A stretch of 64,000 bases of DNA, from positions 132,811 to 196,810 of the forward strand of contig NZ_RAVX01000011.1 of NCBI RefSeq assembly GCF_003611605.1, written 5' to 3'. Below, in pieces: positions 39,774-62,188 of this stretch. The translations under genes were made by a program, and so were the position numbers. The DNA is from Corallococcus sp. AB011P (GTDB lineage Bacteria > Myxococcota > Myxococcia > Myxococcales > Myxococcaceae). Under the pieces are notes generated by a model. That model had not been told where the DNA came from. It searched no databases and worked only from the letters and a program-made list of their open reading frames with translations. The first letter of the stretch is position 1; every line of letters starts with the position of its first letter.

Positions 39774-39783
39774 ACACATCCGA

Positions 39784-39827: not shown

Positions 39828-39845
39828 CCGTCACTTCACTTCACG

Positions 39846-40430: not shown

Positions 40431-40475
40431 CGGGTGCGTCCTTTCCGGGTTCAGTGAGATTCGGCTACTCGTTCG

Positions 40476-41073: not shown

Positions 41074-43470
41074 ATGGCCGGATCCACCCGCCCTCCGTAT
41101 GCTGGCCGGCTGGAGGCGCCCATGGATCCGTTGTGGGGGGAGACGCTGAGGCGTCTGGATGCGCTGCTCGTCCAGGTGTGTGACCTGGAGGAGGCCCGCG
41201 CGTCGAAGCTCCGGGGGGAACAGGAAGCGGGCTGGGATGCCGTGCGCACCACCGTGCGCCCCTCCACCGCGGAGCTCGCCTTCAGCTCGGCGCTCGCGGA
41301 GACACCGCTCCTGGGGACTTCGCCTCCCCTTCCCTTCGCCCGCCTGCGGGCTTCGCTTCGCGTGGACACCGTGGAGGAGGAGGCGTTGCTGCTCCTGCTC
41401 GCGACGTGGCTGGAGCCTCGGTATTCGCGCCTGTTCGCCGTGCTCCAGGACGAGACCGCGCAGGGCTGGAACGTGGAGCGGTTGCTGCTCACCGTCCTGG
41501 GACGTACGCCTGCTCGCGCGCAGCGGTTGCTGGCGTCACTGACCGACAGCGGCCTCCTGGTGGGCGGTGGATTGTTGCAGACGGGCGCCGGTGCTTTTCC
41601 TCCCATGCTCCGGCCCGTGGACCTGGCTCCGGAGGTCCGCGAGGCCCTGCTGGAGTTGCCCCGTCCGTCCGTGATGGGTGAGCTTTCTTTGGAATGGCAT
41701 GGACCGGAGGTGCTGCCTTCCTCCTCGCGCGGGACATTCGCCGTCGTGCATGGCGAGGGCGAACGGCTGGGCGTGGCGCTGGGACTCGCTGGCGAAGCCG
41801 GTGTGCCGCTGGTCGTCGCTCGTTGGGCGGGGGCTCCAGAGCCGGTTCCCATGGCCCGGGCCCTTTGGCGTCTGGCGTCCGTGCGCGGCGCGCTGTTGGC
41901 CGTGGACATGTCCGGTGCTGAGCCGGGGCTGGCTCTCTCCGTCACGGAGACGCTGTCCGGGCTGTGCCAGCGGTTTGGCGGGCAGGCCCTGGTGCTCGCG
42001 GACTCCGCGCAGCCTGTCGCCGTGCCGCACCATGAGGCTCCCGCTCTGGGCTTCGTGCAGCGGCGGACCCTGTGGATGGAGGAGGCCCGGGCTCGGGGAC
42101 TGTCATTGACGGAGGCGGAGGCGGGACGGCTGGCGTCTGGCTTTCGGGGCGGGCTTCAGGAGATCCGCCGCGTGTTCGACTCGGCTCCGGGCGGGGGTGC
42201 GGAGGCGCTTCGTGCCGCTGGCTCGCGGCTCGTCCAGGTGCCCTTGCGACATGGCTACCGGCTGGAGGCGTCGCGGACGTTCGCGGAGCTCGTGGTGCGT
42301 GACACCACTCGCGCGGCCTTGGAGCGTTTGCTGTTCTACGTGGCGCAGCGCGACCGCGTCGCCGAGGAGCGGGGCCTGTCTCGCCGCTTCCGGCTGCACA
42401 CCGGCCCGGTGGCGCTGTTCTCCGGACGCTCCGGCACCGGCAAGACCCTGGCCGCGGAGGTCATCGCCCATGCGGTGGGCCGGCCGCTGTACGTCATCGA
42501 CCTGTCCCGGCTCGTCAGCAAGTACGTGGGCGAGACGGAGAAGAACATCGACGAGGTGCTGTCCCACGGCGAGCGCTCCGGCGCCGTGCTGTTCTTCGAC
42601 GAGGCGGACTCGCTGTTCTCCGCGCGCACGGAGGTCAGCAACGCCAATGATCGCTTCGCCAACCTGGAGGTCGGCTTCCTCCTCCAGCGCATCGAACGCC
42701 ATGACGGGCTGATCATCCTCGCCACCAATCTTCAGACGGCCATCGACGAAGCGTTCCTGCGCCGCTTCCACGCGCGCATCGAGTTCCCCTTCCCCGAGGT
42801 CGAGGAGCGCCGCCGCATCTGGGAGCTGATGCTTCCGGAGGGCGTTCCTCGCTTGGGGACGCTCGACCTGGCGGGCCTGGCGCAGCGGCATCGGCTGGCG
42901 GGCGGTGACATCCGCAACGCCGCGCTCAAGGCCATCTTCCTCGCGGAACAGGCCGGTGCCCCGCTGGCCCAGGAGCACCTGGAGCGCGCCGTCGCGCTGG
43001 AGTTGTATGAGCTGGGCCGGCTCTCGCGGCGTCCGGAGGCGGATGCTCCCTCGGATGCGGGCACACGCTTGCGGCGCGTGGCGGAAGTGTTCCAGGAGGC
43101 ACTGGATTCGCAGCTCAGACAACACTTCCTCAAGGAGGTCCACATCCTCCACGGCTCTCCCACCCGGGAGGCGCTCGCGGGGAAGCGGCCCGCTGTGTCG
43201 CTCGCGCTCTACCGGCTGGCGGTCACCCAGAACGGTGCGCTGCGGCTGGGGCTCATCGTCTCCGCGTGGTCCCACCGCGCGGAGGAGGAACATGAGCTGC
43301 TCGGCGTGCTGCATGGGCTGCTCTCACGTGGACTCCCGCACGAGCTGGATGGTCGCAAGCTCACACCTCGCGTCCAGGAGAGTTATGACTTCGACCTGCT
43401 CCACCGCTTCTGGAGCAGTCATGGACATCCCATCCGGGCCTCGCTGGTCCTCGATGTGGAGATGACCTAG
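41074..43470 (+). CDS. AAA+ ATPase with a large N-terminal domain and a C-terminal classic AAA module (Afp15/Pvc15-like by architecture)
   Basis: Walker A GRSGTGKT, Walker B VLFFDEAD, sensor/arginine finger region (ILATNLQTAIDEAFLRRFHARIEF). A start at 41074 or 41122 is equally plausible. Confidence 0.75.
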   Translation: MAGSTRPPYAGRLEAPMDPLWGETLRRLDALLVQVCDLEEARASKLRGEQEAGWDAVRTTVRPSTAELAFSSALAETPLLGTSPPLPFARLRASLRVDTVEEEALLLLLATWLEPRYSRLFAVLQDETAQGWNVERLLLTVLGRTPARAQRLLASLTDSGLLVGGGLLQTGAGAFPPMLRPVDLAPEVREALLELPRPSVMGELSLEWHGPEVLPSSSRGTFAVVHGEGERLGVALGLAGEAGVPLVVARWAGAPEPVPMARALWRLASVRGALLAVDMSGAEPGLALSVTETLSGLCQRFGGQALVLADSAQPVAVPHHEAPALGFVQRRTLWMEEARARGLSLTEAEAGRLASGFRGGLQEIRRVFDSAPGGGAEALRAAGSRLVQVPLRHGYRLEASRTFAELVVRDTTRAALERLLFYVAQRDRVAEERGLSRRFRLHTGPVALFSGRSGTGKTLAAEVIAHAVGRPLYVIDLSRLVSKYVGETEKNIDEVLSHGERSGAVLFFDEADSLFSARTEVSNANDRFANLEVGFLLQRIERHDGLIILATNLQTAIDEAFLRRFHARIEFPFPEVEERRRIWELMLPEGVPRLGTLDLAGLAQRHRLAGGDIRNAALKAIFLAEQAGAPLAQEHLERAVALELYELGRLSRRPEADAPSDAGTRLRRVAEVFQEALDSQLRQHFLKEVHILHGSPTREALAGKRPAVSLALYRLAVTQNGALRLGLIVSAWSHRAEEEHELLGVLHGLLSRGLPHELDGRKLTPRVQESYDFDLLHRFWSSHGHPIRASLVLDVEMT

Positions 43471-43501: not shown

Positions 43502-46500
43502 GTGCGCATCCGTGACCAGGGCCCGAAGGCCTCCGCCAAGGCCATGCTCCGGAAGAGCTCCGGGCGCACTCCCTCGTCCTCCGCGGCCCTTCCCCGTGCA
43601 CCGGGTGTCGTTCCCCGGGGCCCCTCCTCGTCCAATCCCGCACGTGAGCTGGCGGCACGGCTCGCGTCACTGAAGGGCGCGGCGCCTGCCCTCCATGGGC
43701 CCGTGCTTCGCGATGCCGCGCGCGACCTGGAGCGCCGCTGGAGCGACCCGGCGTGGCGCACGCTGGGCGGTCCGCGCTCGCACCTCTTCGAGCCGTGCCC
43801 GGTCCACCCGCCGGAGGTCGCGCTGCTCTCCACGCCCGGCGCCATCGAGGCGGAGCTGGGCATCCACGGACTCTCACCCCAGCCGAACACCGGGCTCGCG
43901 CAGGCGGCTGGCGCGTCCCAGCCCGCGACCCTCGCGCAGCAGGAGGAGGACGCTCGACGGCGTGATGCGGCACGCATGGCCGTCCTGCCTCCGGGCTCCG
44001 CTGAACAGCTCGGAGACACCGCCGCTCGGCTCGCCGAGGCCCGTGCTTCAGACCTCGCACCCGCTGCGGACACTGAAGAGGCGGAAGCGGCGGGACTTGG
44101 GGGCAGCACTTCTCCTGCGCCCGAGGACATCGCGGCGACCACCGTCGATGCGCCCAGCGCGGGCGGCGAACTGGCAACGCCGGATCAAGCTCCCGCGCCC
44201 GCATCCATCCCCACGGGGACGGCTCCCGGCGGCATGGACGACGCCGCGCGCATCGACACGCTGGTGACCGCACTGTCCAGCGAGGGCGATGTCCACATCG
44301 TCGTCCGTCAGGCATCCCCTGGCACAGGGCCCCGGGAGCCTCCTTCCATCCAGACGGATGCCACGGTCGACACGGGCCTCCCCGAAGCGCGCCCGATGGT
44401 GCCCGCACCTCCGGCCGAGATGGACTGGCAGAAGCAACTGGCCGCGGCCCACGCGCAGGGCGTCCAGGGCATCAAGCACGGTCTCGAAACCGCGCCGGAT
44501 CCAACGGGCGCCGTTGCGGCGGTGGAGCCCCCTGCCCGCCTTCCCGCTCCGCCTCCTGCTCCGGCCGCACCTGTCACGGCAGGGCCCATCCCCACTGCCC
44601 CGGTGATGGGCACGGACGCGGATCCGGTCGCCGCATGGAAGGGCCGCATCGCCAGCAGCACTGCGCGGGTCCCGGAGCCCCAGCTTCCTCCGGCGCCCCG
44701 CTACACGTTCAAGATCATCCAGGCCGCCGTGGACCCCAACGCGGTCCGCGCCGCGCGCCTCAAGCAACTGGAGGACGAAGGCAAGAAGGCCATCACCCCG
44801 GCGAAGCAGCCGAAGGACCTTCCGACCATCCCGGACGACCCCACCGGCAAGGCCTCCTCCCTGGTGGATGCGAAGTGCGAACGGAAGCTGGAGGTCAAGG
44901 ACGCCAGGCTCCCCGACCTGCTGAAGAGCCCGCTGGGCCATGTGCCGGAGATTGGCGCGCAGCTCATGCGCGACGACGGCGGGCACACGCTCATCAAGGG
45001 CCCGCTCGGCGACATCGTCTACAAGCCCGGCGGCCCCAAGCCCACCGACCCGGAGAAGCTCAAGGACTGGACGCGCCTCCAGAAGAAGATCACCGCCGAG
45101 GCCGACAAGCAGAAGAAGGCGAAGGTCCAGCCCAAGGAACCCGCGAAGGGCATCACCGTCCTCGAACAGGCCGCTCCCGCGCCCATCAACGTCCCCGACT
45201 TCGCTCGCGTGGACATTGGCGACGTGCTGGCGCGGCTGCTCGCCGCTCCGGACAAGTACGCGGACGCCTCCGTCCAGAAGGCCCGCGAGGCCTATGTCCC
45301 GGGCGGCCTGGATGCGTCCTGGGGCGTGCCGCTCATCGCCGCTGAACGGCCCATCTTCGCCGCGGAGCTCCAGCGCGTCGCGGACGCCGCGCAGATCAAG
45401 AAGGCGGACCTGGACGCGAAGGTGGAGGCCCGCCGCAAGCAACTGGTGGACTCGCACGCCGCCACCACCGGCTCGCTCAGCAAGGCCCACGAGGAGGCGA
45501 AGAAGAGTCTGGAGGAGGGCGGCAAGTCCTTCGCCGACGCCCTGTCGCGCATGCGCGCCTCGCTCGACGCGCAGTCCGAGGCCAAGGCCGCCGCCATCAA
45601 GGGCGGCGTCGACCTGACCGAGGCCCGACGCAAGCGCGACGCGCTCATCGCGGCCGTGGACACCAAGGTGAGCAACTGGGTCGTCCGGTACGACCAGAAC
45701 GGCAAGCGCTTCAAGGAAGCCTTCGCGAAGGCCGCGACCGACCAGATGCACGCCTACGAGCTCGCCGCGCTCCAGGACGAGTGGGAGCTCAAGAAGGACG
45801 CCGGCGATGATCCGGTGAAGCTCAAGGCGGCCACGGAGGCGTACCGCCCCACCAAGAAGTGGCTGGACGACCGCCGCAAGGAGATTGGCGCTGTCGTCGC
45901 GAAGGCGAAGCGCGACATCGACCAGAGCGTGGAGCGCTACCAGCAGGAGCTGCGCGACGCCGGCAAGGAGGCCCGGGAGGTCATCCGCGACTGGCATGCG
46001 AAGCAGATCGGCTACGAGCGCGGATTCTGGGACCGGCTGCTCGGGTGGATCATCGACTGGCTGGACGTCGCCCACGACGAGAGCCGCGCGTGGGAGGCCG
46101 CTCGCGCGGCGGAGAACAAGACGTCGTTGGATCAGAACATGCTGTTCCTCGCGGAGGTGCGCCTGCGCCAGGGCGAGGAGCTGGACGCGGAGACCATCAA
46201 GGGCAACCACGCTCTCAGCGAGGAGCAGCAGGCCATCCTGCTCTCCTACTACGGCAAGGGTGGCAAGGACGCGGTGCAGGCGCTCGCGGAGGGCCTTGCC
46301 GTGCGCATCATCGGCCAGCGCCGCAAGCCGCTGATGGAGGCCCTGGAGAAGGAGCTGCTCGCGTCCACCGACCTGGAGCGGTTGAAGGTCGTCGTCGACC
46401 AGCAGGAGCCCCTCTTCAGCAACCGCGCCCGCAACATCTCCCTCAAGGTCTGGGAGGGCGTGGACCAGTGGGGCACGGACGAGAAGAAGATCTTCGACGC

Positions 46501-49500
46501 GCTCGCCAACCTCAACCCGCTGCAGGGCCACTACATCGAGCTCCTCTACCAGCAGGAGCACGACGAGAACCTGCGCGAGCGGCTCAAGAGCGAGCTGGAC
46601 GACTTCTTCAGCACCACCACGCATGACTGGGACAGGGCGGAAGCCCTGCTCTCCGGCAACGCCGCCAAGGCCGCCGCCGTCGAGCTGAACGACGCCATGG
46701 AGGGCACCTTCCTCGGGACCGGCTGGGGCACGGACGAGGACGCCATCTTCAACCTGCTTCGCGGCAAGACGCCGGAGCAGATCGAAGTCATCAAGAAGGC
46801 CTACCAGCAGAAATACGGCAAGGACCTCGTCGCCCAGATGGACGACGAGCTGCGCAGCGGCGCGCGCACGACGCACGACGCGGACGAGATGCACGCCCTG
46901 GTGGAGGGCCGCACCGAGGACGCGCGCGCCATCGAGATGGACCGCGCCATGCGCGGCGGGTGGTTCTTTGGCCTGGGCACCGACCGCAAGGCCATGGAGG
47001 GCGTCTACGACCGCATCCGCAAGGAGACGGAAGCAGACGCGCAGCAGTACGGCTGGGATACCAAGACGTTCCGCGCGGAGCTGCTCAAGCGCAACCAGGC
47101 CATCGACGCGTCGTATGAGCAGCAATACGGCACGGATTGGACCCAGCGCACCGCGGGCGAGAGCGCGCTCAGCGCCGCGTTCCACGATGAGATGAAGGGC
47201 GAGGACCTCAAGCTCATCGAGGGCCTGCGCGACGACAAGGGACTCCAGGTGGATGCCGCGCGCATCCGCATCGAGCACACCAGCATCCTCTACGCGGACG
47301 ACAAGATCATCCGCGACGCCATGTCCGCGCAGGGCAAGCGGCAGATCGCCGACGCGCGCCGCGACGGATACCTGGACGTCCAGGAGCGGCTGGACATCGA
47401 GCGCAGCCTGGACGAGGCGAAGGTCAAACCCGCCAGCGAGGGCCCGCTCACGGAGGAGGACCGCCGCAAGGGCCGCATCAGCGAGCTGGAGTTCCTGGAG
47501 AAGTGGAGCCCGGAGAAGGTCCAGGCCCGCGTCACGAAGGAACGCAAGGAGGTGGACGACAAGGCGAAGGTCCAGGCCCAGGCTGACGCCCAGGCGAACA
47601 TGAAGGCGCTGGCGGCCGAGTACGACAGCGCCTACGTGGAAGGCACGCACCTGCAGGCGGGCTTCGAGCAGGCCGTCCTGATGGACACCTCCGGCGCGGA
47701 CCGCGACGCCGTCGCGGCGATGCTGCAGAAGGGCTACCTCACCGACGCCGAAATCGTTCAGTACGCCGTGCAGGGCGTAGGCACGGACGAGGACGCGCTC
47801 AAGGAGGTCTTCGCAGGAAAGACAAAGGCGGAGATTCAAGCCATGGCCGAGGAGTGGGCCAAGGACCACCCCGCCGATCCTGGTGACACGCGCACGCCCT
47901 TCGAGCGCTTCCGCGATCGCATCGACGAGGAGCTGAGCGGGCGCGAAGAGTTCGACATCATGGACATGGTGGACTACGGCGAGCCCGTCACGCCCCGGGA
48001 GAAGGCGGACCGGGCCTGGCGCCGGGTGCACTTCGAGGCGCGCTCCACCAACAGCATGGCGTCGTCGGAGTACCAGCTGGTGCTGGACCAGGCGTCCGCG
48101 CTCGACGCAGAGGTGAGCGCGCTGGAGCTGCACGAGCGGATGCGCCCCAAGCCCGGGGACAAGAACTACACCGTCGACGGGCTGCGCAAGTGGCAGGACG
48201 ACTGGGAGAAGAAGTCCGAGCGCGTGCAGCGCCAGGGGGACTACGCGGACGAGGCGGTGCAGATGCACCGCGAGCAGGTGGACTTCATCACCGACCGGCT
48301 GGTGACCATCCTCTCCGTGGTGGTGATGGCGGTGGTGGTCATCATCGGCGTCATCGTCAGCATCTTCTTCCCGCCCGCGGGCGCGGGGTTCTGGGCCGCG
48401 TTCGGCGCGTTCATGGCCAGCACGCCGGTGCTGGTGGGCACGGCGGTGGCGACGGCCGCGGTGACGATGCTGACCAAGGCCGCCCTGAAGGGCAGCGCCT
48501 ACGGCTGGGAGGAGGCCGCCACCGACGCGGGCGTGGGCGCCGTGGATGCGCTCGCCTCCGTGGCCACCGCGGGCATGGGCACGAAGCTGCTCAAGCTGGG
48601 GTTCCTGGCGCGCATGGCGGAGGAAGGCGGCGTGCTGGCGCGCATGACGGCGCACGGCCTGGCCCAGGGCGCGGAAGGCCTGGCGCAGGCGGTGCCCTCC
48701 GCGTTCCTGGGCAACGTCCTCAACGACGAGAACTACAAGGGCGGCAACGCGCTCTTCAACGTGCTGGCCGGCACCGCGATGCAGGCGGCGCCGGGCGCGG
48801 TGATGGCCGGAGGGCTGGGCGCGCTGGGCGGCATCTCCAAGCCCCACGTGCCACCTCGAACCCAGGACCTGCTCCACTTCCGGGGCACGCCCAAGGAGCG
48901 GCTGACCCTCTTCAAGAAGTGGAAGGCGGAGAACCCCGCCGGGGACATGAAGGAGTTCCTGCGCGAGTTCGACGACGGCCTGCTCAAGCAGATGTCGGGC
49001 GACTTCGACCGGCAGCAGCTCCAGCGCGCGATGCGCAAGGAGTTGCTCGAGCACATCCCGCCCGCGCAGCGCAAAGCGTTCGCGAACACGCCCATCGAGA
49101 TGCTCTCCGAGGGTGACTTCGAGTCGCTCACCGGCAGCAAGTCCGCGCAGGCCGTCACGATGTTCCGGCGCGGCAAGCCCACCATCATCATCAAGGCGGG
49201 CGCGGACCTGTCCGACCTGGGTGAGGAGGGCCTGCACCTGCTCCAGCGCCACGACAAGGCGACGCGCGAGCTGGTCAGGTCGCTGGACGAAACGGCGCTG
49301 CGACACTGGGACCAGCTGCCCATCGAGAAGCAGTTCGAGCTCTATCGCAAGAAGCTGCGCCTGGAGATCGCGGCTCAGGAGTCGCTGCTCACGTCGCTGG
49401 AGGGCAAGCGCGGCGTGACCCTGGAGCCCGCGGAGGCCACGCGCCGGATCCGGCAGGGAGAGAAGACGCTGGCGAACCTGCGCCAGCGGATGAAGGAGGT

Positions 49501-51643
49501 GGATGCGTTCACGCCGGTGGAGATGGCGGAGTTCGGCCAGGGCGTGCGCTCGAAGCCTCAGTACCTGAATGAGCCGCCGCGGCTGTTCGGCAAGAAGAAG
49601 CCGCCCGAGGCTCCGCTGGCTCCGGAGGGAAAGCCGCCGGAGGTGGAGGGGGCCCGGCAGCTGGAGATGGAGTTCCATGCGGCGAAGCCGGTGAAGCCGC
49701 CGGAGCCGGAGGTTCCGACGCCCAGGCAGCTGGAGATGGGGTTCCCCGCGGAGAAGCCACCGGAGGTGGTCGTTCCGGAGACGAAGCCGCCAGCGGTGGA
49801 GGCGCCCAAGCCCACCGGCGAACCCGAGGTGCCGAAGGGCGCGCTGGCCGAGGGCGACTGGCCCCAGACGTTCGACGTGCACCCGAACGAAGACGTGGGC
49901 CCGTTCTCCCTCCAGCGTCCCGACCTGAATGACCCGAGGATTGGCCTGGTGGAGCGCACGCCGCTGACGGGGAAGCTGCTCAAGCGCACCACCCAGAAGC
50001 TCAACCCGGGGGAGACGCTGGCCCAGGTGGGACCAGCCTGGGAGGAGCTGAAGTTCGTCAAGAAGGGCCGCGTGTACGAACGGCGCTACTACCGCCTGGT
50101 CGAGAAGACCGACACGAACGGCGAGAAGCACCTCTTCGAGGAGATCCTCTCCGCCCGCTCGGGCAACCGCTGGGAGACGCGCGGCGAATTCGCCCGGAGG
50201 GAGGGAAACGAACTGGAGAAGGTCGCCTCCCTGCGGATGACCGAGGCGAACCTGGGCGACCGGCTGGGGCCGGGCAAGGAGTTCCAGCGCGTCACCTTCA
50301 AGCCCAAGGGCAAGCAGGACAGCGGCTTCGACGAGCTGCTCTTCCAGTTCGACGATGGCGTCAACCCCACCAAGGCGGACGTCCACATCATGGAGGTCAA
50401 GGGGGGCAAGGACGAGCCCCGGTTCCGCAAGTTCACCTCCACCGGAGAGAACCTGCCCGGCAACCTGAAGCAGCTTCGCGCTGCGCTGGACGACCCCAAC
50501 TGGAGGCGCAGCCAACAGCTGAGCCCGAGGCACGCCGCGGTGGTCAGGGACGCCCTGGACGCGTGGCGGGTGAGAATCGAGGTGCGCATCGGGCCCAAGA
50601 CGGAGATGCCCCCCCAGCTGCTGTCCAAGCGCATCGAGCGGGCGGCGAGCGCCTGGCGCGAGTTGGACCTGCTCACCCAGCATCTGCCACCGGGCGCGGA
50701 GGACCTGGCGCTCGTCAAGCGGCTCAAGGCCGACCTCAGGACGGCGCTCAAGTCGGGGAACGTCGACATCGCGGACCGGGCCTTCGACCGGATCGAGGCC
50801 ATCGTGAACGGCGCCACGCCCGGCGAGGGGCTCTTCGCGAAGCATGGCATCGAGCTCGACCCCCGGCCTCCCATGATGCGCGGCCTGGATCCCAACGAGG
50901 TCGCGGGCACCATCGTCCGGATCGACGAGAAGTTCATGCCCCCTCCCCCCGTCAAGACCGCCTCGGTCGAAGACGTGGTGGATGTCGTCACGGGGCTGGA
51001 CGAAACCAAACGGGTCCGCAATCGGATCGCGGGCGGCCGGGTGCTGGGGTGGGGAGACTTCGACATCACCGAGTCCCTTCAATGGAAGACGCGGAAGCTC
51101 CAGGCCTTCGAGCGCGCGCAGCTGCGCGACATCCGCGACCAGCTCGTGCAGATTCCAGAACTCGACCCCAAGCGCTTCAACGCGCTGCCGCCCCTGGAAA
51201 AGGAGCTGGCGCTGCGCGAGGCGGCGGAGGCCACCATGGAGGCGCTGGGCATCCCGAAGTCGCGGCGGCCGGAGGTCCTCTTCAAGCGCCTGCGCGGGGA
51301 CTATGGCTACATGAGCTGGAACTTCCGGCGCCTCAAGGGCGGACGGCTGAAGCCGTACCGGAAGCGGGGCCAGCTGGTCATCGCGAAGGGGCTGACGGTG
51401 GGCGAAGCGGTAGGCACCATCGTCCACGAGACCCGGCACTACTATCAGGCCTATCAGGCCTACCAGCTGTCGCTCCGGCGCCAGGCGCATCCGCTCGCGG
51501 CGCTGTGGGCGGGCAACCTTCCCGGCTCCGGCGGCACGTACCACATCGCGGGCCCGCGCTACTATTCACAACCCATCGAGGTGGACGCGGAGACCTTTGG
51601 CCGCCGTCTCATCGATCTGCTCCCGGGGCGATGGCCCCCTTGA
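43502..51643 (+). CDS. Giant (2713 aa) multidomain protein: disordered Pro/Ala-rich N-terminus, at least four annexin repeats, transmembrane segment(s), Pro/Glu-rich linker, C-terminal HExxH-containing domain. Candidate effector/toxin.
   Basis: GTG start after GGGGGGA. Annexin repeats (QWGTDEKKIFDAL...LKSELDDFF, GWGTDEDAIFNLLRGKTPEQIEVIKKAYQQKYGKDL...DDELRSG, GLGTDRKAMEGVYDRIRKE, GVGTDEDALKEVFAGKTKAEIQAM). Hydrophobic block (ILSVVVMAVVVIIGVIVSIFF). C-terminal IVHETRHYYQ. Uniform high-GC3 codon usage over 8.1 kb. Confidence 0.8.
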   Translation: MRIRDQGPKASAKAMLRKSSGRTPSSSAALPRAPGVVPRGPSSSNPARELAARLASLKGAAPALHGPVLRDAARDLERRWSDPAWRTLGGPRSHLFEPCPVHPPEVALLSTPGAIEAELGIHGLSPQPNTGLAQAAGASQPATLAQQEEDARRRDAARMAVLPPGSAEQLGDTAARLAEARASDLAPAADTEEAEAAGLGGSTSPAPEDIAATTVDAPSAGGELATPDQAPAPASIPTGTAPGGMDDAARIDTLVTALSSEGDVHIVVRQASPGTGPREPPSIQTDATVDTGLPEARPMVPAPPAEMDWQKQLAAAHAQGVQGIKHGLETAPDPTGAVAAVEPPARLPAPPPAPAAPVTAGPIPTAPVMGTDADPVAAWKGRIASSTARVPEPQLPPAPRYTFKIIQAAVDPNAVRAARLKQLEDEGKKAITPAKQPKDLPTIPDDPTGKASSLVDAKCERKLEVKDARLPDLLKSPLGHVPEIGAQLMRDDGGHTLIKGPLGDIVYKPGGPKPTDPEKLKDWTRLQKKITAEADKQKKAKVQPKEPAKGITVLEQAAPAPINVPDFARVDIGDVLARLLAAPDKYADASVQKAREAYVPGGLDASWGVPLIAAERPIFAAELQRVADAAQIKKADLDAKVEARRKQLVDSHAATTGSLSKAHEEAKKSLEEGGKSFADALSRMRASLDAQSEAKAAAIKGGVDLTEARRKRDALIAAVDTKVSNWVVRYDQNGKRFKEAFAKAATDQMHAYELAALQDEWELKKDAGDDPVKLKAATEAYRPTKKWLDDRRKEIGAVVAKAKRDIDQSVERYQQELRDAGKEAREVIRDWHAKQIGYERGFWDRLLGWIIDWLDVAHDESRAWEAARAAENKTSLDQNMLFLAEVRLRQGEELDAETIKGNHALSEEQQAILLSYYGKGGKDAVQALAEGLAVRIIGQRRKPLMEALEKELLASTDLERLKVVVDQQEPLFSNRARNISLKVWEGVDQWGTDEKKIFDALANLNPLQGHYIELLYQQEHDENLRERLKSELDDFFSTTTHDWDRAEALLSGNAAKAAAVELNDAMEGTFLGTGWGTDEDAIFNLLRGKTPEQIEVIKKAYQQKYGKDLVAQMDDELRSGARTTHDADEMHALVEGRTEDARAIEMDRAMRGGWFFGLGTDRKAMEGVYDRIRKETEADAQQYGWDTKTFRAELLKRNQAIDASYEQQYGTDWTQRTAGESALSAAFHDEMKGEDLKLIEGLRDDKGLQVDAARIRIEHTSILYADDKIIRDAMSAQGKRQIADARRDGYLDVQERLDIERSLDEAKVKPASEGPLTEEDRRKGRISELEFLEKWSPEKVQARVTKERKEVDDKAKVQAQADAQANMKALAAEYDSAYVEGTHLQAGFEQAVLMDTSGADRDAVAAMLQKGYLTDAEIVQYAVQGVGTDEDALKEVFAGKTKAEIQAMAEEWAKDHPADPGDTRTPFERFRDRIDEELSGREEFDIMDMVDYGEPVTPREKADRAWRRVHFEARSTNSMASSEYQLVLDQASALDAEVSALELHERMRPKPGDKNYTVDGLRKWQDDWEKKSERVQRQGDYADEAVQMHREQVDFITDRLVTILSVVVMAVVVIIGVIVSIFFPPAGAGFWAAFGAFMASTPVLVGTAVATAAVTMLTKAALKGSAYGWEEAATDAGVGAVDALASVATAGMGTKLLKLGFLARMAEEGGVLARMTAHGLAQGAEGLAQAVPSAFLGNVLNDENYKGGNALFNVLAGTAMQAAPGAVMAGGLGALGGISKPHVPPRTQDLLHFRGTPKERLTLFKKWKAENPAGDMKEFLREFDDGLLKQMSGDFDRQQLQRAMRKELLEHIPPAQRKAFANTPIEMLSEGDFESLTGSKSAQAVTMFRRGKPTIIIKAGADLSDLGEEGLHLLQRHDKATRELVRSLDETALRHWDQLPIEKQFELYRKKLRLEIAAQESLLTSLEGKRGVTLEPAEATRRIRQGEKTLANLRQRMKEVDAFTPVEMAEFGQGVRSKPQYLNEPPRLFGKKKPPEAPLAPEGKPPEVEGARQLEMEFHAAKPVKPPEPEVPTPRQLEMGFPAEKPPEVVVPETKPPAVEAPKPTGEPEVPKGALAEGDWPQTFDVHPNEDVGPFSLQRPDLNDPRIGLVERTPLTGKLLKRTTQKLNPGETLAQVGPAWEELKFVKKGRVYERRYYRLVEKTDTNGEKHLFEEILSARSGNRWETRGEFARREGNELEKVASLRMTEANLGDRLGPGKEFQRVTFKPKGKQDSGFDELLFQFDDGVNPTKADVHIMEVKGGKDEPRFRKFTSTGENLPGNLKQLRAALDDPNWRRSQQLSPRHAAVVRDALDAWRVRIEVRIGPKTEMPPQLLSKRIERAASAWRELDLLTQHLPPGAEDLALVKRLKADLRTALKSGNVDIADRAFDRIEAIVNGATPGEGLFAKHGIELDPRPPMMRGLDPNEVAGTIVRIDEKFMPPPPVKTASVEDVVDVVTGLDETKRVRNRIAGGRVLGWGDFDITESLQWKTRKLQAFERAQLRDIRDQLVQIPELDPKRFNALPPLEKELALREAAEATMEALGIPKSRRPEVLFKRLRGDYGYMSWNFRRLKGGRLKPYRKRGQLVIAKGLTVGEAVGTIVHETRHYYQAYQAYQLSLRRQAHPLAALWAGNLPGSGGTYHIAGPRYYSQPIEVDAETFGRRLIDLLPGRWPP

Positions 51644-51655
51644 GGAAGAGAAGCC

Positions 51656-52183
51656 ATGCGTGGTGCTCCGTCGAGGACAGTCACCTGCTACGTGTGCGGC
51701 TCGAAGTTCACCGTGCACCAGAAGCTGGTGGTCACGAAGCGCGACACGGTCGTGCAGCCCGACCCGGACGCGTGCCCGTACTGCGACACGCCGCTCAAGA
51801 CGATTGGCGCGCTGGGTGAGGGCGAGGCCAAGGGCCTGGTGCTGCTCGCCGCGGGCTTTCCGGATGAGGTGAAGGCCTACGGGAAGCCCGAGGACTATCT
51901 GGAGGAGTTCACGCTGACGGAGAAGGACGTCGACGCGCTGGTGGAGCTGGCGCAAGGGTTGGACTTCGCCGCGTGGGAAAAGGACAACGCGGAGCGGCTG
52001 GCGCGGCGCAAGAACCCGCGCGTGCAGGCCGTGTCCCGCTTCCTGCCGAAGCTCCAGGCACGGATGGAGAACGGTGAGCTTCCTGAGCGGTTGCGGCAGG
52101 CCGCGGAGCACGTCAAGGATGTGTACCGCGCGCGGCGGGAGCGCCACCTCGCGATCTTCGAGAAGCGCCAGAAGCAGCGATGA
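51656..52183 (+). CDS. Hypothetical protein with an N-terminal CxxC...CxxC zinc-ribbon
   Basis: CYVCGSKF...CPYCDT. Starts 13 nt after the giant gene. Confidence 0.55.
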   Translation: MRGAPSRTVTCYVCGSKFTVHQKLVVTKRDTVVQPDPDACPYCDTPLKTIGALGEGEAKGLVLLAAGFPDEVKAYGKPEDYLEEFTLTEKDVDALVELAQGLDFAAWEKDNAERLARRKNPRVQAVSRFLPKLQARMENGELPERLRQAAEHVKDVYRARRERHLAIFEKRQKQR

Positions 52184-52965
52184 CGGGCGACGGAGGACGC
52201 ATGGCGGATCAACCGGACAATCCCCCCACCACCTGGAGCGCGCTCTTCGCGGGCGGCCGTGAAGGCGCGGACGCGAAGGAGTTCCTGACGCTCGTGACGC
52301 CCTCCGCGCTGAAGAACGTGAACCTCCCCGCGCGCGAGGCGGGGTCCCTGTGCAACACGCTTAGCGTGGCGCTGGTGCTGTGCGACCCCACGGAGAGCCG
52401 GGCGCTGGCGGAGCCCCTGTCGCGGCTGGCCGGGCCCGCGCTCCAGCAGGTCGCGGAGGACTTCGACGACCTGCGGCCCGAAGAGGTCATCAACGTGCTG
52501 TCGTTCGTGAACGCCCAGGAGTGCGCGGGCGTGCTGGAGGGACTGCTGGCGAGCTCGCCCGTGGAGGCGTGGCTGGAGGCGCTGATGAAGGTGCGCCGGA
52601 CGCTGCACGACGAGCTGGCGTACCGGTGTGGACTGGTGGCGCTGGCGCTGGGGCCACCGGAGCTGGCGGCCCGGTTCGTGGGCGGCGGGAAGCTGACCCA
52701 GGACTTCACGCCGGGGCAGACGTTCGGGTTCAACGTCCAGGGCTTCGTGCGCTACCTGGCGACGGCGCGGCTGCGGAAGGCCCCGGCCCGGGACGTGCGC
52801 CCGGCGTGGGAGACGTTCGTGGAGGCCTTTCCCCTGAAGGCGGCGGCGAGCACGCTGGAGTGGAAGGACCTCCTCTGGGCGGCGCGCGCGTACTTCGCGG
52901 GCCTGGAGGGGCGGCCGGTGGCGCGGGTGGGTGAGTCCCTGCATGCGCGCGTGAAGCCTGCCTGA
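52180..52965 (+). CDS. Hypothetical protein (ATGA-coupled)
   Basis: Overlapping start/stop with its neighbours. Coding-like codon usage. No known domain recognised. Confidence 0.5.
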   Translation: MTGDGGRMADQPDNPPTTWSALFAGGREGADAKEFLTLVTPSALKNVNLPAREAGSLCNTLSVALVLCDPTESRALAEPLSRLAGPALQQVAEDFDDLRPEEVINVLSFVNAQECAGVLEGLLASSPVEAWLEALMKVRRTLHDELAYRCGLVALALGPPELAARFVGGGKLTQDFTPGQTFGFNVQGFVRYLATARLRKAPARDVRPAWETFVEAFPLKAAASTLEWKDLLWAARAYFAGLEGRPVARVGESLHARVKPA

Positions 52966-54479
52966 TGCACTCCCCTGCCCTCGTCGCGCGGCCGGAGGTT
53001 TCCTTCGAGGCGATGGACCGGGTGCTGTCCGCGTTGGGCTGGTTCCTCCAGTCCGAAAGCCAGACGCCTCCGCTCATCCCCGGCGAGCCGGAGTCCGCGG
53101 TGTATGTGAAGCGCGCGACGGACCTGGCGCTCCACTACACGTTCAACCCGGTGCTCCGGCTGCGGGTGCTCGAGTTCTCCGGACCTGACGCGGTGGGGGA
53201 ATGGGTGGCCGTGCGCAAGGTGGTGCCGGTGCTGGAGGCCCCGGCGCTCGCGGCGCTGCTGACGTCGTCGGAGACGCGGGAGGTGCTGCTGGGGTTGCTG
53301 GCCACGGAGGCGCTGCGGGAGCGCTCGTCGATGGAGCGCGTGGCGGCGCTGCGCTTCCATCCGGAGTTCAGCGTGTCGCGGACCGCGGAGCGCGTGCTGG
53401 CGTCGCTGGTGCCGGACGGGACGGAGGAGGCGTTCGCGCGGCTGAAGGCGGAGAAGGAGGCGCATCCGGATCGCTCCGTGCTGTTCGCGCACCTGCCGGG
53501 GGAGGAGCAGCGGCGGCAGGTGTTGCGCTGGCTCATCCAGGATCAGGCGGCGTCGAATCCGGACATCGACGCGGTGCTGCGCTCCGCGCTGGTGGACACG
53601 GACGCGGAGGTGCGGGTGACGGCGGTGATGGCGGCGGCCCGGCTCCAGGCGAGGGAGGTGCTGCCAGCGCTGCGCGCGGCCCGGATGCCCACGTCGACAC
53701 GGGAGGGCGCGGACCCGAGGGACCGGCAGTTCTATTCGAACCTGCGGGACCTGGTGGCCCAGGTGCTCGCGGGCCGGCCGCTGCCTCCGGAGGGTTCACC
53801 GAAGCGTGAGCGGATGGCTCCGCTCTTGCGCGCACTGTCGGGTCCCGCGGACGTGCGGGACGATCCCACGCTGCTGCTGCATGCGCTCACGACGCCGGTG
53901 GATCCGGGGCCACGTTCGGTGGGACTGCCCGAAGCGGTGGTGGAGCGGGAAGGCACATACCGGCTGCGCCGCTCCGGGTTGGAGGCGCGCTGGGTGCCTC
54001 CGGTGGAGCACTGGCTGGGGACGGGGCCGACGCTGCGGCGCGTGACGTCACCGGGGTTCTTCGTCGCTCGGGTGCCCGTGAGCCGGGCCGCGGCGGCCTG
54101 GGCGATGGCGGCTTCGCAGGGGCCGGTGGGTACGGCGGGGCCGGACGCGGAGGAGCCGCTGCCCTGCACTCTCGTGGAGGCGGAGCAGGTGTGCTCGGCG
54201 CTGTCGCGCATTGAGGGCGTGGAGCTGCGGCTGCCTTCCAGCGAGGAATGGGAGATGGCTGCCCGCGGGCCGGACGGGCGGCTGTTCCCGTGGGGCAATT
54301 CGATGCGGGACGACGGGGCTTCACGGGCTTCGCCCTGGGGCGTGGAGAAGCTCGTGGCTTCGCTTCCGCAGTGGGCGCGGGAAGGCCTGCTGTGCGGGGG
54401 ACGGGAACAGCCGCTGTGCGCTTCGCGCCGCGAGGTGGCGGCGGCGGTGGGCGCCGTCCGATGGGTGCTGGCCTCCTGA
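52965..54479 (+). CDS. HEAT-repeat protein with a C-terminal formylglycine-generating-enzyme (FGE/SUMF1-type) domain
   Basis: PBS-lyase/HEAT-like repeats (VRVTAVMAAARLQAREVLPAL). C-terminal RLPSSEEWEMAARGPDGRLFPWGN, matching the FGE-sulfatase domain core. Confidence 0.6.
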   Translation: MHSPALVARPEVSFEAMDRVLSALGWFLQSESQTPPLIPGEPESAVYVKRATDLALHYTFNPVLRLRVLEFSGPDAVGEWVAVRKVVPVLEAPALAALLTSSETREVLLGLLATEALRERSSMERVAALRFHPEFSVSRTAERVLASLVPDGTEEAFARLKAEKEAHPDRSVLFAHLPGEEQRRQVLRWLIQDQAASNPDIDAVLRSALVDTDAEVRVTAVMAAARLQAREVLPALRAARMPTSTREGADPRDRQFYSNLRDLVAQVLAGRPLPPEGSPKRERMAPLLRALSGPADVRDDPTLLLHALTTPVDPGPRSVGLPEAVVEREGTYRLRRSGLEARWVPPVEHWLGTGPTLRRVTSPGFFVARVPVSRAAAAWAMAASQGPVGTAGPDAEEPLPCTLVEAEQVCSALSRIEGVELRLPSSEEWEMAARGPDGRLFPWGNSMRDDGASRASPWGVEKLVASLPQWAREGLLCGGREQPLCASRREVAAAVGAVRWVLAS

Positions 54480-54549
54480 AGCTGACTGGCAGCTCGAGGA
54501 CGCCAGGGCCGCCGCTCACGAAGCTGGGCCCCCTGGGAAGTCGGGGAGC

Positions 54550-54880
54550 TTCAGGCTGGCAGCCACCTCCGGGGACGAAGCTCCTCAAACCTGTCCGACT
54601 GTCGGACAGGTTTCCCGAGGCCGCAACCGGCAGGGCCCCCTCACCCCAAGTCGAGGAGTTTCAGGCTGGCAGCCACCTCCGGGGACGAAGCTCCTCAAAC
54701 CTGTCCGACTGTCGGACAGGTTTCCCGAGGCCGCAACCGGCAGGGCCCCCTCACCCCAAGTCGAGGAGTTTCAGGCTGGCAGCCACCTCCGGGGACGAAG
54801 CTCCTCAAACCTGTCCGACTGTCGGACAGGTTTCCCGCGGCCGCAGCCGGCAGGGCCCCCTCCCCCTCGGTGCCACCGAC
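54550..54880. repeat. Three tandem copies of a 110-bp unit, each containing the 27-bp palindrome AAACCTGTCCGACTGTCGGACAGGTTT (at 54587, 54697, 54807)
   Basis: Seen directly. Unit: TTCAGGCTGGCAGCCACCTCCGGGGACGAAGCTCCTCAAACCTGTCCGACTGTCGGACAGGTTTCCCGAGGCCGCAACCGGCAGGGCCCCCTCACCCCAAGTCGAGGAGT. Copies 1 and 2 are identical; copy 3 carries a few substitutions. Confidence 0.9.
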
Positions 54881-54909
54881 CACCGGTCTCGTCCGTCGAG
54901 TCGGTCGCG

Positions 54910-60996: not shown

Positions 60997-61000
60997 CGCG

Positions 61001-62188
61001 TCACCCCACCGGCATGCGCTTGACGAAGCCGAAGTAGGACCAGTCCAGCATCGGTGTCATCGCCGCCCAGACATCCAGGAGCGGCCCGTACGCGGCCACC
61101 GTCAGCGGGTTCACCGCCTTGAGGATCTGCGCCAGCATCGTGAAGTGGATGGCCAGCCCGTCCCCCAGCACCATGGGCGAGATGGCGGAGAGGCCTCCCA
61201 CCTGGCACACGCCCAGCATCGTGTTGATGGACACGTTGCCCGCCAGCGCGTCAATGGAGACGGCGTTGAGCGACGGTCCCGGCAGGTCCGGCATCGCCGC
61301 GGCCACCTTCACCGCCTTGCCCGCTGCCAGGTTCACGTTGCCCCCGGACGTGACGCCAAAGCCCCCTACCGCCGTCTCCTGCGACGCGCCGGACACGATG
61401 CGCGTGTGGCTGCCCTGGATGCGGTCCTCTCGCGGACCGCCGACGATCTCCTTCAGGCCGCTGCCGCCCACCGTGCGCGAGTAGCCCGCCACGTCCACCT
61501 TCTCCGTCAGCGACCCCGTCACGTGCAGCGACACGTCCCCGCCCACGTCACGGGTGTGGCTGCCGTCCACCGTCTCGTCCTGGTTGCCCGCCACCTCCAG
61601 GTGGTCGTCGCCGTCCACCTCCGCGGAGCGGTTGCCCTCGTTCACCGTGCGCTCGTTGCTGATGAGCCGGTCGAGGCCTTCCGCGGACAGGATGACGCGG
61701 TTGCCCTGCCGGTCGTGGATCTCCACGCGTGCTGTCTCCGGCCGGTCGTCCAGGACGATGTAGTGGCCCGTGGCGGACTTGAGCATCCGCACGCCCGGCA
61801 CCGCGGACTGGGGCGGATAGTCGTGCTTGGGAATCTCACTGACGTCCGGGGCCACGCGCGCGGTGGAGTCCGGCTGGCCCAGGTCCGCGAGCGCGGGCTG
61901 CCCCCACCACATGCCGCTCCAGATGGGCTGGGTCAGGTCTCCGCCCTCGAACTCCACCCAGACACCCGCGCCCACGTCCGGCACCACGAAGAGGCCCTGA
62001 TCCGGCCCCGCGTACGGCGTGCACGGCATGGCCCAGCCCGTGGCCACGTCTCCCATCAGGCGCGGCACCACGCACTGGATGCGCCCCAGGTTGAGGGGAT
62101 CCGAGACGTTCGTCACGTAGCCCCGGTACTTGCCGAAGTAGCGGCTCTCCGTGCGTTCGATGAGCTGCTGCAGCAGTTGTTCGATCAT
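61001..62188 (-). CDS. Phage baseplate spike protein (gpV/gp5-like OB-fold N-terminus plus beta-helical needle), equivalent to an Afp8/VgrG-like component
   Basis: N-terminus matches the Phage_base_V pattern (YRGYVTNVSDPLNLGRIQCVVPRLMGD...GWAMPCTPYAGPDQGLFVVPDVGAGVWVEFEGGDLTQPIWSG). Followed by repetitive beta-helix segments (HTRDVGGDVSLHVTG..., GSHTRIVSG...). Confidence 0.75.
   Translation of the reverse strand: MIEQLLQQLIERTESRYFGKYRGYVTNVSDPLNLGRIQCVVPRLMGDVATGWAMPCTPYAGPDQGLFVVPDVGAGVWVEFEGGDLTQPIWSGMWWGQPALADLGQPDSTARVAPDVSEIPKHDYPPQSAVPGVRMLKSATGHYIVLDDRPETARVEIHDRQGNRVILSAEGLDRLISNERTVNEGNRSAEVDGDDHLEVAGNQDETVDGSHTRDVGGDVSLHVTGSLTEKVDVAGYSRTVGGSGLKEIVGGPREDRIQGSHTRIVSGASQETAVGGFGVTSGGNVNLAAGKAVKVAAAMPDLPGPSLNAVSIDALAGNVSINTMLGVCQVGGLSAISPMVLGDGLAIHFTMLAQILKAVNPLTVAAYGPLLDVWAAMTPMLDWSYFGFVKRMPVG

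What the first reader, a model, noticed from the sequence alone, without database searches (positions are those of the whole stretch)
49800..51643. C-terminal HExxH-bearing domain after a transmembrane block in the giant protein
A strongly hydrophobic stretch (ILSVVVMAVVVIIGVIVSIFF...FWAAFGAFMASTPVLVGTAVATAAV) lies near residue 1600. It is followed by a Pro/Glu-rich spacer containing RQLEM(E/G)F repeats. The last about 500 aa end with IVHETRHYYQAYQ, a candidate zinc-metallopeptidase HExxH motif. This is the layout expected of a polymorphic toxin or effector with a C-terminal enzymatic domain. The three coupled downstream genes (Zn-ribbon, unknown, HEAT-FGE) could be accessory or immunity factors.
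Basis: inference. Interest (0 to 1): 0.55.

Follow-up and report, generated by a model that had tools for sequence, protein, structure and literature searches.

The report
Dual toxin tip of giant effector
The last 600 residues of a 2,713-residue Corallococcus protein carry two swappable toxin modules, one nuclease-like and one zinc-protease-like with the HExxH motif, and each has its own protective gene just downstream, which makes this a well-supported but fairly ordinary new example of a bacterial polymorphic toxin.

Summary
The 43502..51643 ORF (2713 aa, Corallococcus sp. AB045) has a transmembrane hairpin at aa 1600-1657. It has a Pro/Glu-rich linker with two RQLEMxF repeats, and a single HExxH at aa 2642.

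The finding's span holds two modules. Module A (aa ~2165-2445) carries an E...GFD...ExK nuclease-like motif. Module B (aa ~2500-2713) is the zincin.

The conserved scaffold ends at the motif PQYLNEPPRLF (aa 2019-2029). Beyond it, Corallococcus orthologues split into two allele classes, independent of scaffold identity.

The two small downstream genes co-vary with the toxin tip (50-53% identity against 81-94% for flanking genes). The Zn-ribbon gene family follows module B in a T6SS prePAAR effector, in a DUF4157 protein and in a Tad-type locus. The 261-aa gene family follows module-A-only proteins. Both are therefore cognate immunity genes. The HEAT-FGE gene is conserved (86%) and goes with the scaffold.

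Both toxin and both immunity families are absent from Pfam. Verdict: new members of a known kind. Enzyme activity, target and delivery route are untested.

The parts
41122..43470 (+). WHD + AAA+ ATPase, first gene of the operon. It shares the Afp15/Pvc15-like domain layout and has a weak C-terminal Pvc16_N match.
   Evidence: Pfam AAA 1.2e-24, WHD 2.9e-8, Pvc16_N 9e-4, the last below cut-off. The start at 41122 is set by the 785-aa C. exercitus orthologue, 94% identical. The same gene precedes the giant gene in L001, L003, L005 and the P0020 locus.
43502..51643 (+). Giant polymorphic toxin / effector gene (2713 aa).
   Evidence: Translation. 100% match to Corallococcus sp. AB045 D7Y21_16885, with full-length orthologues at 67-90% identity.
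46718..46852 (+). Best-scoring annexin repeat (aa 1073-1117). Pfam reports three matched stretches for the protein.
   Evidence: Pfam Annexin 1.2e-21, 3 stretches. Bacterial annexins of C. coralloides are described in PMC3894181.
48299..48472 (+). Transmembrane helical hairpin (aa ~1600-1657), followed by a Gly/Ala-rich hydrophobic region to about aa 1780.
   Evidence: Hydropathy peaks. The region is 80-97% identical in Corallococcus orthologues.
49019..49606 (+). Conserved pre-toxin module (aa 1840-2035) with invariant E1909, H1912 and Q1915. Function unknown.
   Evidence: jackhmmer and alignment A3. No Pfam or PDB match.
49556..49588 (+). Junction motif PQYLNEPPRLF (aa 2019-2029), marking the end of the constant scaffold.
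   Evidence: The motif recurs across the family, and sequence diverges immediately after it.
49589..49888 (+). Variable Pro/Glu-rich linker with two RQLEMxF repeats (nt 49655 and 49724).
   Evidence: Orthologues have 0-2 repeats, and the linker is only 32-78% identical or cannot be aligned.
50075..50617 (+). Toxin module A core (aa 2192-2372). Invariant E2239, G2275-F2276-D2277, E2298 and K2300 suggest a PD-(D/E)xK-type nuclease.
   Evidence: Exhaustive HMMER hits and alignments. The fold was not tested, and there is no Pfam or PDB hit.
50969..51640 (+). Toxin module B (aa 2490-2713), a zincin-like domain. HETRH is at nt 51425-51439 and the candidate third ligand E2693 at nt 51578-51580.
51656..52183 (+). 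Zn-ribbon protein (175 aa), the predicted cognate immunity protein for module B.
   Evidence: 50% identity to the C. exercitus orthologue against 81-94% for flanking genes. Homologues lie immediately downstream of module-B toxins in L006, L007 and L085. The CxxC...CxxC pattern is conserved.
52180..52965 (+). 261-aa protein, the predicted cognate immunity protein for module A.
   Evidence: 53% identity to the C. exercitus orthologue. Homologues lie immediately downstream of module-A-only giants in L004 and L005.
52965..54479 (+). HEAT + FGE-sulfatase-like protein (504 aa), a conserved partner of the scaffold and not part of the variable cassette.
   Evidence: Pfam. 86% identical in C. exercitus despite the different toxin allele. 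Its N-terminal domain is also found in L005 and L001.
61001..62188 (-). gp5/VgrG-like spike gene of a convergent phage-tail-like cluster (54913..>64000, minus strand).
   Evidence: Pfam Phage_base_V 8.7e-24 and Gp5_trimer_C. PHROGs baseplate hub. Same synteny in L001 and L004.

Best explanation
The region is the variable toxin tip of a giant polymorphic toxin or effector. A constant scaffold runs to the junction motif PQYLNEPPRLF at aa 2019-2029. It comprises a disordered N-terminus, a long helical region, annexin repeats, a transmembrane hairpin and a conserved pre-toxin module. After the junction come a variable linker and two toxin modules in tandem. Module A carries the E...D...ExK signature of PD-(D/E)xK nucleases. 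Module B, the subject of the finding, is a zincin-fold domain with an HExRHxxQ helix and an invariant Glu (E2693) on a later helix, the gluzincin arrangement. It most likely acts as a zinc-dependent hydrolase, probably a protease, on a target in the bacterial cytoplasm. The producer is protected by two translationally coupled cytoplasmic immunity proteins: the Zn-ribbon protein (51656..52183) for module B and the 261-aa protein (52180..52965) for module A. Shown here: motif conservation, zincin fold, modularity, allele exchange at the junction, and toxin-immunity co-occurrence and co-variation. Inferred: enzymatic activity and target; the nuclease nature of module A; delivery by the adjacent phage-tail-like spike cluster with help from the upstream AAA+ ATPase; and a role for the annexin repeats and hairpin in crossing the target membrane.
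Confidence: 0.75

Rival explanations
1. Module B is not a toxin but an autoproteolytic 'releasing' peptidase that cuts the giant protein, for example at the junction or linker, to free module A. This is the role Zhang et al. proposed for most PVC-metallopeptidase domains.
For: The HExxHxxQ...E signature is the one reported for the PVC-metallopeptidase, which is mostly a processing peptidase (PMC3482391). A conserved junction motif and repeated QLEMxF sites could serve as cleavage sites.
Against: Module B sits at the extreme C-terminus, downstream of the other toxin. It is the only C-terminal domain in the prePAAR, DUF4157 and Tad-locus proteins, and it has its own dedicated, co-varying downstream protein in each. 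A processing peptidase needs no immunity protein. QLEMxF repeats are absent from many orthologues. hhalign against a DUF4157 domain aligns only 13 residues (E 0.18).
Confidence: 0.08
2. The protein is an anti-eukaryotic effector, for example against amoebae, fungi or nematodes. The zincin would cleave a eukaryotic target and the downstream genes would be chaperones rather than immunity proteins.
For: Annexin repeats are mainly eukaryotic and were read as marks of anti-eukaryotic eCIS effectors (PMC8213781). Zhang et al. note that many PVC-type toxins lack adjacent immunity genes. Corallococcus is a predator (my own knowledge).
Against: The two small genes co-vary with the toxin alleles, 50-53% against 81-94% for neighbours. 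They travel with their modules into a T6SS prePAAR effector context, a class known for antibacterial cytoplasmic toxins (the class attribution is my own knowledge). Chaperones for a conserved scaffold would not be expected to diversify with the toxin tip.
Confidence: 0.1
3. The giant protein is a membrane-anchored component acting in the producer itself, for example in regulated cell death or development as proposed for cytoplasmic Streptomyces contractile systems, rather than a toxin delivered to other cells.
For: There is no signal peptide, and the two-helix hairpin would leave both ends in the cytoplasm. Intracellular CIS with membrane-targeted, hairpin-bearing effectors (Sle1) are described in 10.1101/2025.11.06.686954. 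Sheath and tube genes were not seen here.
Against: Allelic diversification of the toxin tip together with immunity genes among close relatives is the signature of between-cell conflict. The same modules are carried by T6SS and WXG100 scaffolds that export proteins.
Confidence: 0.07
4. The HExxH is a chance or degenerate motif in a non-enzymatic domain.
For: An HExxH arises by chance in 6% of shuffles of the whole protein. No Pfam family passes its cut-off on the window sequence.
Against: The motif and seven further positions are invariant in 33 homologues. The fold matches only zincins.
Confidence: 0.02

Closest known systems
PVC/eCIS-type polymorphic toxins with annexin repeats and C-terminal toxins (e.g. 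Haliangium ochraceum Hoch_1736), described in silico by Zhang et al. 2012 (PMC3482391) and in the bacterial-annexin survey PMC3894181
   Same: Giant protein, annexin repeats, predicted TM segments, a variable C-terminal enzymatic toxin that can be a metallopeptidase, and a neighbouring AAA+ ATPase and phage-tail-like genes. The C. coralloides orthologue COCOR_03294, which one source names 'Annexin', comes from the strain whose annexins were catalogued there.
   Different: There is no N-terminal DUF4157/PVC-metallopeptidase domain: HETRH is the only HExxH in the protein and Pfam gives no hit. The C-terminal zincin is neither the anthrax-LF-like/Peptidase_M90 type nor any Tox-MPTase Pfam family. 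There are two toxins and two immunity genes, whereas many PVC-type toxins are reported without immunity genes.
Pfam DUF6782 (putative metallopeptidase family), with DUF3920 and SprT-like as weaker neighbours
   Same: Local match around the HExxH helix. 16 of 18 module-B members hit DUF6782, best E 3e-8.
   Different: The window sequence scores 21.5-22.2 bits against a cut-off of 27, and only about 40 of 241 profile positions align. DUF6782 itself is uncharacterised and no paper mentions it.
Small zincins of known structure: HtpX and BepA (M48), the minigluzincins projannalysin, proabylysin and selecase, Spartan/Wss1 (SprT-like), and CapP/IrrE
T6SS prePAAR effectors with transmembrane domains and Eag (DUF1795/DcrB-family) chaperones
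   Same: One module-B protein (P0045) is such an effector: prePAAR, PAAR, hydrophobic region, then module B, with a DcrB-family gene upstream and a homologue of the 175-aa Zn-ribbon protein downstream. Hydrophobic helices precede a cytoplasm-acting toxin, as in the window protein.
   Different: The window protein has no PAAR or prePAAR, is about five times longer, and is linked to an AAA+ ATPase and a gp5-like spike cluster rather than a T6SS.
Sle1-type tape-measure-related CIS effectors of actinobacteria (10.1101/2025.11.06.686954)
   Same: Long helical N-terminal part, a TM helical hairpin and a diversified C-terminal functional domain. One member has a downstream immunity gene.
   Different: Sle1 is paired with a small DUF4157 protein (Sle2) next to the sheath gene. 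No such partner or sheath gene is seen here, and no sequence homology to Sle1 was tested.
CdiA-CT and Rhs toxins with their VENN and PxxxxDPxGL demarcation motifs (my own knowledge)
   Same: A short conserved motif marks where the constant part ends and the exchangeable toxin-immunity cassette begins. PQYLNEPPRLF plays that positional role here.
   Different: Unrelated sequence and scaffold. Whether cleavage occurs at the motif is unknown.

Membership tests
Zincin (HExxH) metallopeptidase superfamily, gluzincin type | HExxH on an alpha-helix, conserved across homologues | tested here: met
   H2642, E2643 and H2646 are invariant in 33 of 33 sequences. They lie in predicted helix 144-168 of the model.
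Zincin (HExxH) metallopeptidase superfamily, gluzincin type | Third zinc ligand (Glu) on a downstream helix | tested here: inconclusive
   E2693 is invariant, lies 47 residues after H2646 and sits at the start of predicted helix 202-217. D2695 is also invariant. I could not read the model coordinates, so the geometry is unchecked.
Zincin (HExxH) metallopeptidase superfamily, gluzincin type | Zincin fold by structure comparison | tested here: met
Zincin (HExxH) metallopeptidase superfamily, gluzincin type | Zinc-dependent hydrolytic activity | not testable with these tools
   Needs biochemistry.
Pfam DUF6782 | Score at or above the gathering cut-off (27 bits) | tested here: not met
   21.5-22.2 bits for the window sequence. 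Relatives reach E 3e-8.
PVC-metallopeptidase / DUF4157 (eCIS_core, PF13699) | HExxHxxQ...E signature (PMC3482391) | tested here: met
   HETRHYYQ with Q2649 and E2693 invariant. The signature is described.
PVC-metallopeptidase / DUF4157 (eCIS_core, PF13699) | Detectable homology to the DUF4157 domain | tested here: not met
   No PF13699 hit for any of 18 members at E <= 0.1. hhalign against the DUF4157 domain of P0041 aligns 13 residues, probability 0.3%.
Polymorphic toxin system (Zhang et al. 2012) | [quoted passage not shown] | tested here: met
Polymorphic toxin system (Zhang et al. 2012) | The same toxin domain is found on different delivery scaffolds | tested here: met
   Module B on DUF4157, prePAAR/PAAR and WXG100 proteins and in a Tad-locus protein. 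Module A after PT-HINT.
Polymorphic toxin system (Zhang et al. 2012) | Cognate immunity gene immediately downstream that travels and co-varies with the toxin | tested here: met
   Protection itself is untested.
PD-(D/E)xK nuclease superfamily (module A) | Conserved E ... D ... (D/E)xK catalytic pattern | tested here: met
   E2239, D2277, E2298 and K2300 are invariant in 18 of 18.
PD-(D/E)xK nuclease superfamily (module A) | Restriction-endonuclease-like alpha-beta-beta-beta-alpha-beta fold | not tested
The single-sequence model was unreliable there (pLDDT 30-58). No Pfam or PDB sequence hit.
eCIS/CIS effector | Encoded beside an Afp15/Pvc15-type AAA+ ATPase | tested here: met
   A WHD+AAA gene lies directly upstream here and in four related loci.
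eCIS/CIS effector | Locus contains contractile sheath and tube genes | tested here: inconclusive
   Only a gp5-like spike is recognisable. Upstream of the spike in C. exercitus is a 2768-aa Beta_helix/DUF6519 protein. DNA further out could not be reached.
eCIS/CIS effector | DUF4157 domain in the protein or an adjacent gene | tested here: not met
   None in the giant protein or its neighbours.

The most novel reading that the evidence does not exclude
The ATPase, the annexin/TM-hairpin giant, the HEAT-FGE partner and the convergent spike cluster may together form a delivery machine distinct from known sheath-and-tube contractile systems. The spike cluster includes the gp5-like spike, a 64-aa protein, proteins of about 536, 720 and 403 aa with no detectable homologues in Pfam, PHROGs or the PDB, and a ~2,770-aa beta-helix protein. 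In this reading the giant protein inserts into and crosses the target membrane by itself. It delivers a nuclease and a new cytoplasmic zincin toxin that serve kin discrimination or predation among myxobacteria.
Probability: 0.15. Interest if true: 0.8.

Novelty: new member of a known kind. Interest (0 to 1): 0.5.

Why it matters
The finding defines two toxin domain families and two immunity families that are absent from Pfam. The evidence for the pairings is clean genomic co-occurrence and co-variation. The zincin module is shared between T6SS (prePAAR), DUF4157/eCIS-type, WXG100/T7SS-type and Tad-locus proteins, so identifying its cytoplasmic target would inform several secretion fields at once. 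Cytoplasm-acting protease toxins with dedicated immunity proteins are much less studied than nucleases or NADases. The two allele classes among closely related Corallococcus species make the locus a candidate kin-discrimination determinant in a social predator. The scaffold raises a concrete question: how is a 295-kDa protein with a membrane hairpin delivered? The overall logic, a polymorphic toxin with downstream immunity, is well established, so the advance is incremental.

Tried and rejected
1. The word-indexed homology search with the last 614 aa found nothing, probably because of the Pro-rich linker. The whole protein, exhaustive HMMER and a module-B profile did work.
2. The single-sequence AlphaFold model of aa 2100-2713 was useless (pLDDT 41).
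3. Sequence and profile searches of modules A and B and the pre-toxin module against the PDB gave only noise.
4. Foldseek against the PDB was not significant, and the afdb50 library was unavailable.
5. I considered that the pre-toxin module (aa 1840-2035, 'EEGLHLLQ', with HEAAH in one relative) is a degenerate DUF4157-type zincin. Only ExxHxxQ is invariant, and hhalign gives 17% probability against module B (aligned away from the motif) and 0.2% against a DUF4157 domain. The idea is not supported.
6. I considered module B to be a divergent DUF4157. Only the 13-residue motif aligns, so it is not filed there.
7. I considered the RQLEMxF repeats to be functional sites. They vary from 0 to 2 copies among orthologues, so they are probably just linker.
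8. I tried to show that the neighbouring cluster is a contractile injection system. Only the spike is recognisable. The look-up of the window's spike protein was not on record, as was P0027.
9. Literature searches for DUF6782 and DUF3920 found nothing relevant.
Full report
**What is there.** The window is about 70% G+C. The finding lies in ORF 43502..51643 (+), 2713 aa, which is identical to hypothetical protein D7Y21_16885 of Corallococcus sp. AB045.
- Two strong hydrophobic segments lie at aa ~1600-1657.
- RQLEM occurs at aa 2052 and 2075, inside a Pro/Glu-rich linker. The corresponding DNA is a 69-bp unit in 1.9 copies.
- A single HExxH (HETRH) lies at aa 2642-2646, nt 51425-51439.
- On composition alone an HExxH appears in 6% of shuffles of the protein and in 1% of shuffles of the last 614 aa. 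The motif alone proves little.

**The span is two modules.** Pfam sees only annexin repeats in the giant protein. It gives a sub-threshold DUF6782 'putative metallopeptidase' hit at aa 2621-2660, and NCBIfam sees nothing. An exhaustive HMMER search of 1.84 billion representatives with aa 2100-2713 returned only 32 proteins, which fall into two groups.
- One group matches aa ~2165-2445 (module A).
- The other matches aa ~2450/2500-2713 (module B), nearly always at the very C-terminus of the hit.

**Module B, the HExxH domain.**
- In a 33-sequence alignment, H2642, E2643, R2645, H2646, Q2649, W2669, Y2687, Q2690, P2691, E2693 and D2695 are invariant (alignment A1). The signature is HExRHxxQ ... 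QP[IV]ExDA.
- E2693, 47 residues after the second His, is the obvious third-ligand candidate.
- With A1 as its alignment, AlphaFold gave a confident model (pLDDT 85.8, pTM 0.86). The HExxH lies in helix 144-168 and E2693 at the start of helix 202-217.
- Foldseek against the PDB was not significant. Against viral models it gave SprT-like and IrrE-like proteins at probability up to 1.0.
- Scanning the 18 members of A1 against Pfam gave DUF6782 for 16 (best 3e-8), SprT-like for 2 and DUF3920 for 2. There were no DUF4157 or Tox-MPTase hits.
- hhalign against a DUF4157 domain aligned only the 13-residue motif.
- The conclusion is a zincin-fold, gluzincin-like domain of an undescribed family. The window sequence fails DUF6782's cut-off, so I do not file it there.

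**Module A.** Eighteen diverse sequences share invariant W2224, G2228, G2235, E2239, G2275-F2276-D2277, E2298, K2300 and N2321. The order E ... D ... ExK is the catalytic pattern of PD-(D/E)xK nucleases (established knowledge). The nuclease call is therefore an inference from the motif.

**Polymorphic-toxin behaviour.**
- Full-length orthologues exist throughout Corallococcus.
- More distant homologues share aa ~450-2050 but end in other toxins: PT-HINT, PF15541 (named 'polymorphic toxin type 4' by one source) and ADP-ribosyl exotoxin.
- A per-region identity table shows the scaffold (aa 400-2048) at 78-96% in all Corallococcus.
- Modules A and B fall into two classes, 59-85% / 72-96% against 41-44% / 53-57%, regardless of scaffold identity. 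For example, P0007 has a 95% identical scaffold with 43% / 54% identical modules.
- The break follows the conserved motif PQYLNEPPRLF at aa 2019-2029. This motif recurs across the family, and sequences diverge directly after it.
- The QLEMxF repeats number 0-2 among orthologues, so they look like variable linker.
- Module B also ends proteins with DUF4157/eCIS_core N-termini (P0041), a prePAAR/PAAR T6SS effector preceded by a DcrB-family gene, WXG100 fusions and a protein in a VWA/T2SSF (Tad-like) locus.
- Module A follows a PT-HINT domain in P0059.

**Downstream genes.** The three genes are tightly coupled: a 12-bp gap, then 4-bp and 1-bp overlaps.

| Gene, window against C. exercitus SDU142 | Identity |
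|---|---|
| Flanking genes | 81-94% |
| Giant protein, aa 1-2029 | 84% |
| Giant protein, aa 2107-2713 | 46% |
| 175-aa Zn-ribbon gene | 50% |
| 261-aa gene | 53% |
| HEAT-FGE gene | 86% |

- The toxin tip and the first two genes therefore form one variable cassette.
- Homologues of the 261-aa protein lie directly after module-A-only giants in Micromonospora pattaloongensis (L004) and a metagenome locus (L005).
- Homologues of the 175-aa protein, with the CxxC...CxxC pattern conserved, lie directly after module-B-only toxins in L006 (T6SS, E 2.9e-11), L007 (DUF4157 protein, E 7e-23) and L085, where the copy is cut by the contig end (E 6.6e-4 to the window protein, about 1e-5 to other family members).
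- This assigns one immunity family to each module.
- Neither protein has a hydrophobic N-terminus. Both toxins therefore probably act in the cytoplasm.
- The HEAT-FGE protein goes with the scaffold. Its N-terminal ~145 aa recur in L001 and in L005, where the toxin complement differs.

**Context and delivery.**
- The gene upstream is a WHD+AAA ATPase with a weak C-terminal Pvc16_N match. It precedes the giant gene in every related locus examined.
- A cluster convergent on the operon includes a gp5/VgrG-like spike at 61001..62188, with the same synteny in L001 and L004.
- The other cluster proteins match nothing in Pfam, PHROGs or the PDB.
- Upstream of the spike in C. exercitus lies a 2768-aa Beta_helix/DUF6519 protein rather than sheath or tube genes.
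- Delivery by a phage-tail-like machine is thus plausible but unproven.

**Literature.**
- Zhang et al. 2012 described annexin-bearing toxins of the 'PVC secretion system', C-terminal metallopeptidase toxins and the HExxHxxQ-E signature.
- The bacterial-annexin survey catalogued Corallococcus annexins and TM-bearing annexin toxins.
- Geller et al. linked DUF4157 and annexin domains to eCIS toxins.
- A 2025 preprint describes hairpin-bearing, tape-measure-like CIS effectors with variable C-termini and, in one case, an immunity gene.

**Verdict.** The kind of system is known. The two toxin and two immunity families are new members without Pfam models or literature. Confidence is 0.75 that module B is a zincin-type toxin domain with the Zn-ribbon protein as its immunity. 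Confidence is lower, about 0.5, for contractile-system delivery and for protease rather than other hydrolase chemistry.

Noticed in passing
window 49556-49588 (aa 2019-2029): The conserved motif PQYLNEPPRLF marks the exact point where scaffold conservation ends and the exchangeable toxin cassette begins. Variants ([FWY][LM]x[EQK]x[PA]R[LM]F) occur across the family, twice in P0028. It could be a recombination boundary or a cleavage site.
   Followed up: partly
window 49019-49606 (aa 1840-2035): A pre-toxin module is shared by many giant proteins and by shorter module-A toxins. E1909, H1912 and Q1915 are invariant ('EEGLHLLQ'; a true HEAAH in one relative). It looks like a degenerate HExxHxxQ, but profile comparisons do not support a zincin or DUF4157 relationship.
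   Followed up: partly
window 50075-50617 (aa 2192-2372): A second toxin module carries invariant E2239, GFD2277 and E2298-x-K2300, a PD-(D/E)xK-like pattern. It has no Pfam or PDB match, and its fold was not modelled with an alignment.
   Followed up: partly
window 52965-54479: The HEAT + FGE-sulfatase-like protein is conserved with the scaffold (86% in C. exercitus). Its N-terminal ~145 aa recur next to related giants that carry a different toxin complement (L005). It may be an adaptor or chaperone.
   Followed up: partly
L001 18668-19845 compared with window 51656-52965: The order of the two immunity genes is swapped in the metagenomic relative L001 (the 254-aa gene first, then the 138-aa Zn-ribbon gene), although the toxin modules stay in the order A then B.
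   Followed up: no
window 54913-64000 (minus strand); L011 1114-9420: A convergent cluster holds a gp5-like spike (61001..62188), a 64-aa gene and genes of about 536, 720, 403, 243 and 73 aa with no detectable homologues in Pfam, PHROGs or the PDB. In C. exercitus a 2768-aa Beta_helix/DUF6519 protein lies upstream of the spike. No sheath or tube gene was recognised.
   Followed up: partly
window 43200-43470 (ATPase aa ~755-830): The AAA+ ATPase ORF ends with a weak match to Pvc16_N (DUF4255, the tail terminator family), E 9e-4 and below cut-off. It is marked 'faint' in two relatives, which hints at an ATPase-terminator fusion.
   Followed up: no
window 44048-51544 (minus strand): A 2498-aa open reading frame runs antisense to the giant gene. 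It is almost certainly a high-G+C shadow ORF, not a gene.
   Followed up: no
L002 21054-24928 compared with window ~54480-54912: C. exercitus has three extra genes (a 308-aa protein, a HAD hydrolase and a Pua-like metallophosphatase) between the HEAT-FGE gene and the spike cluster. They are absent from the window.
   Followed up: no
window 34981-40976: Upstream neighbours are conserved in C. exercitus: a sigma-70 region-4 protein, an SGL/NHL beta-propeller protein, a Ser/Thr kinase with PD40/WD40 repeats, and on the minus strand Fe/Mn superoxide dismutase (39855-40430) and a flavin reductase (40479-40976). The 217-aa and 226-aa plus-strand ORFs there are probably spurious.
   Followed up: partly
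P0046 (3329 aa): One homologue carries module B internally (aa 2044-2219), followed by kinase-like and further C-terminal regions. This is a multi-effector arrangement unlike the others.
   Followed up: no
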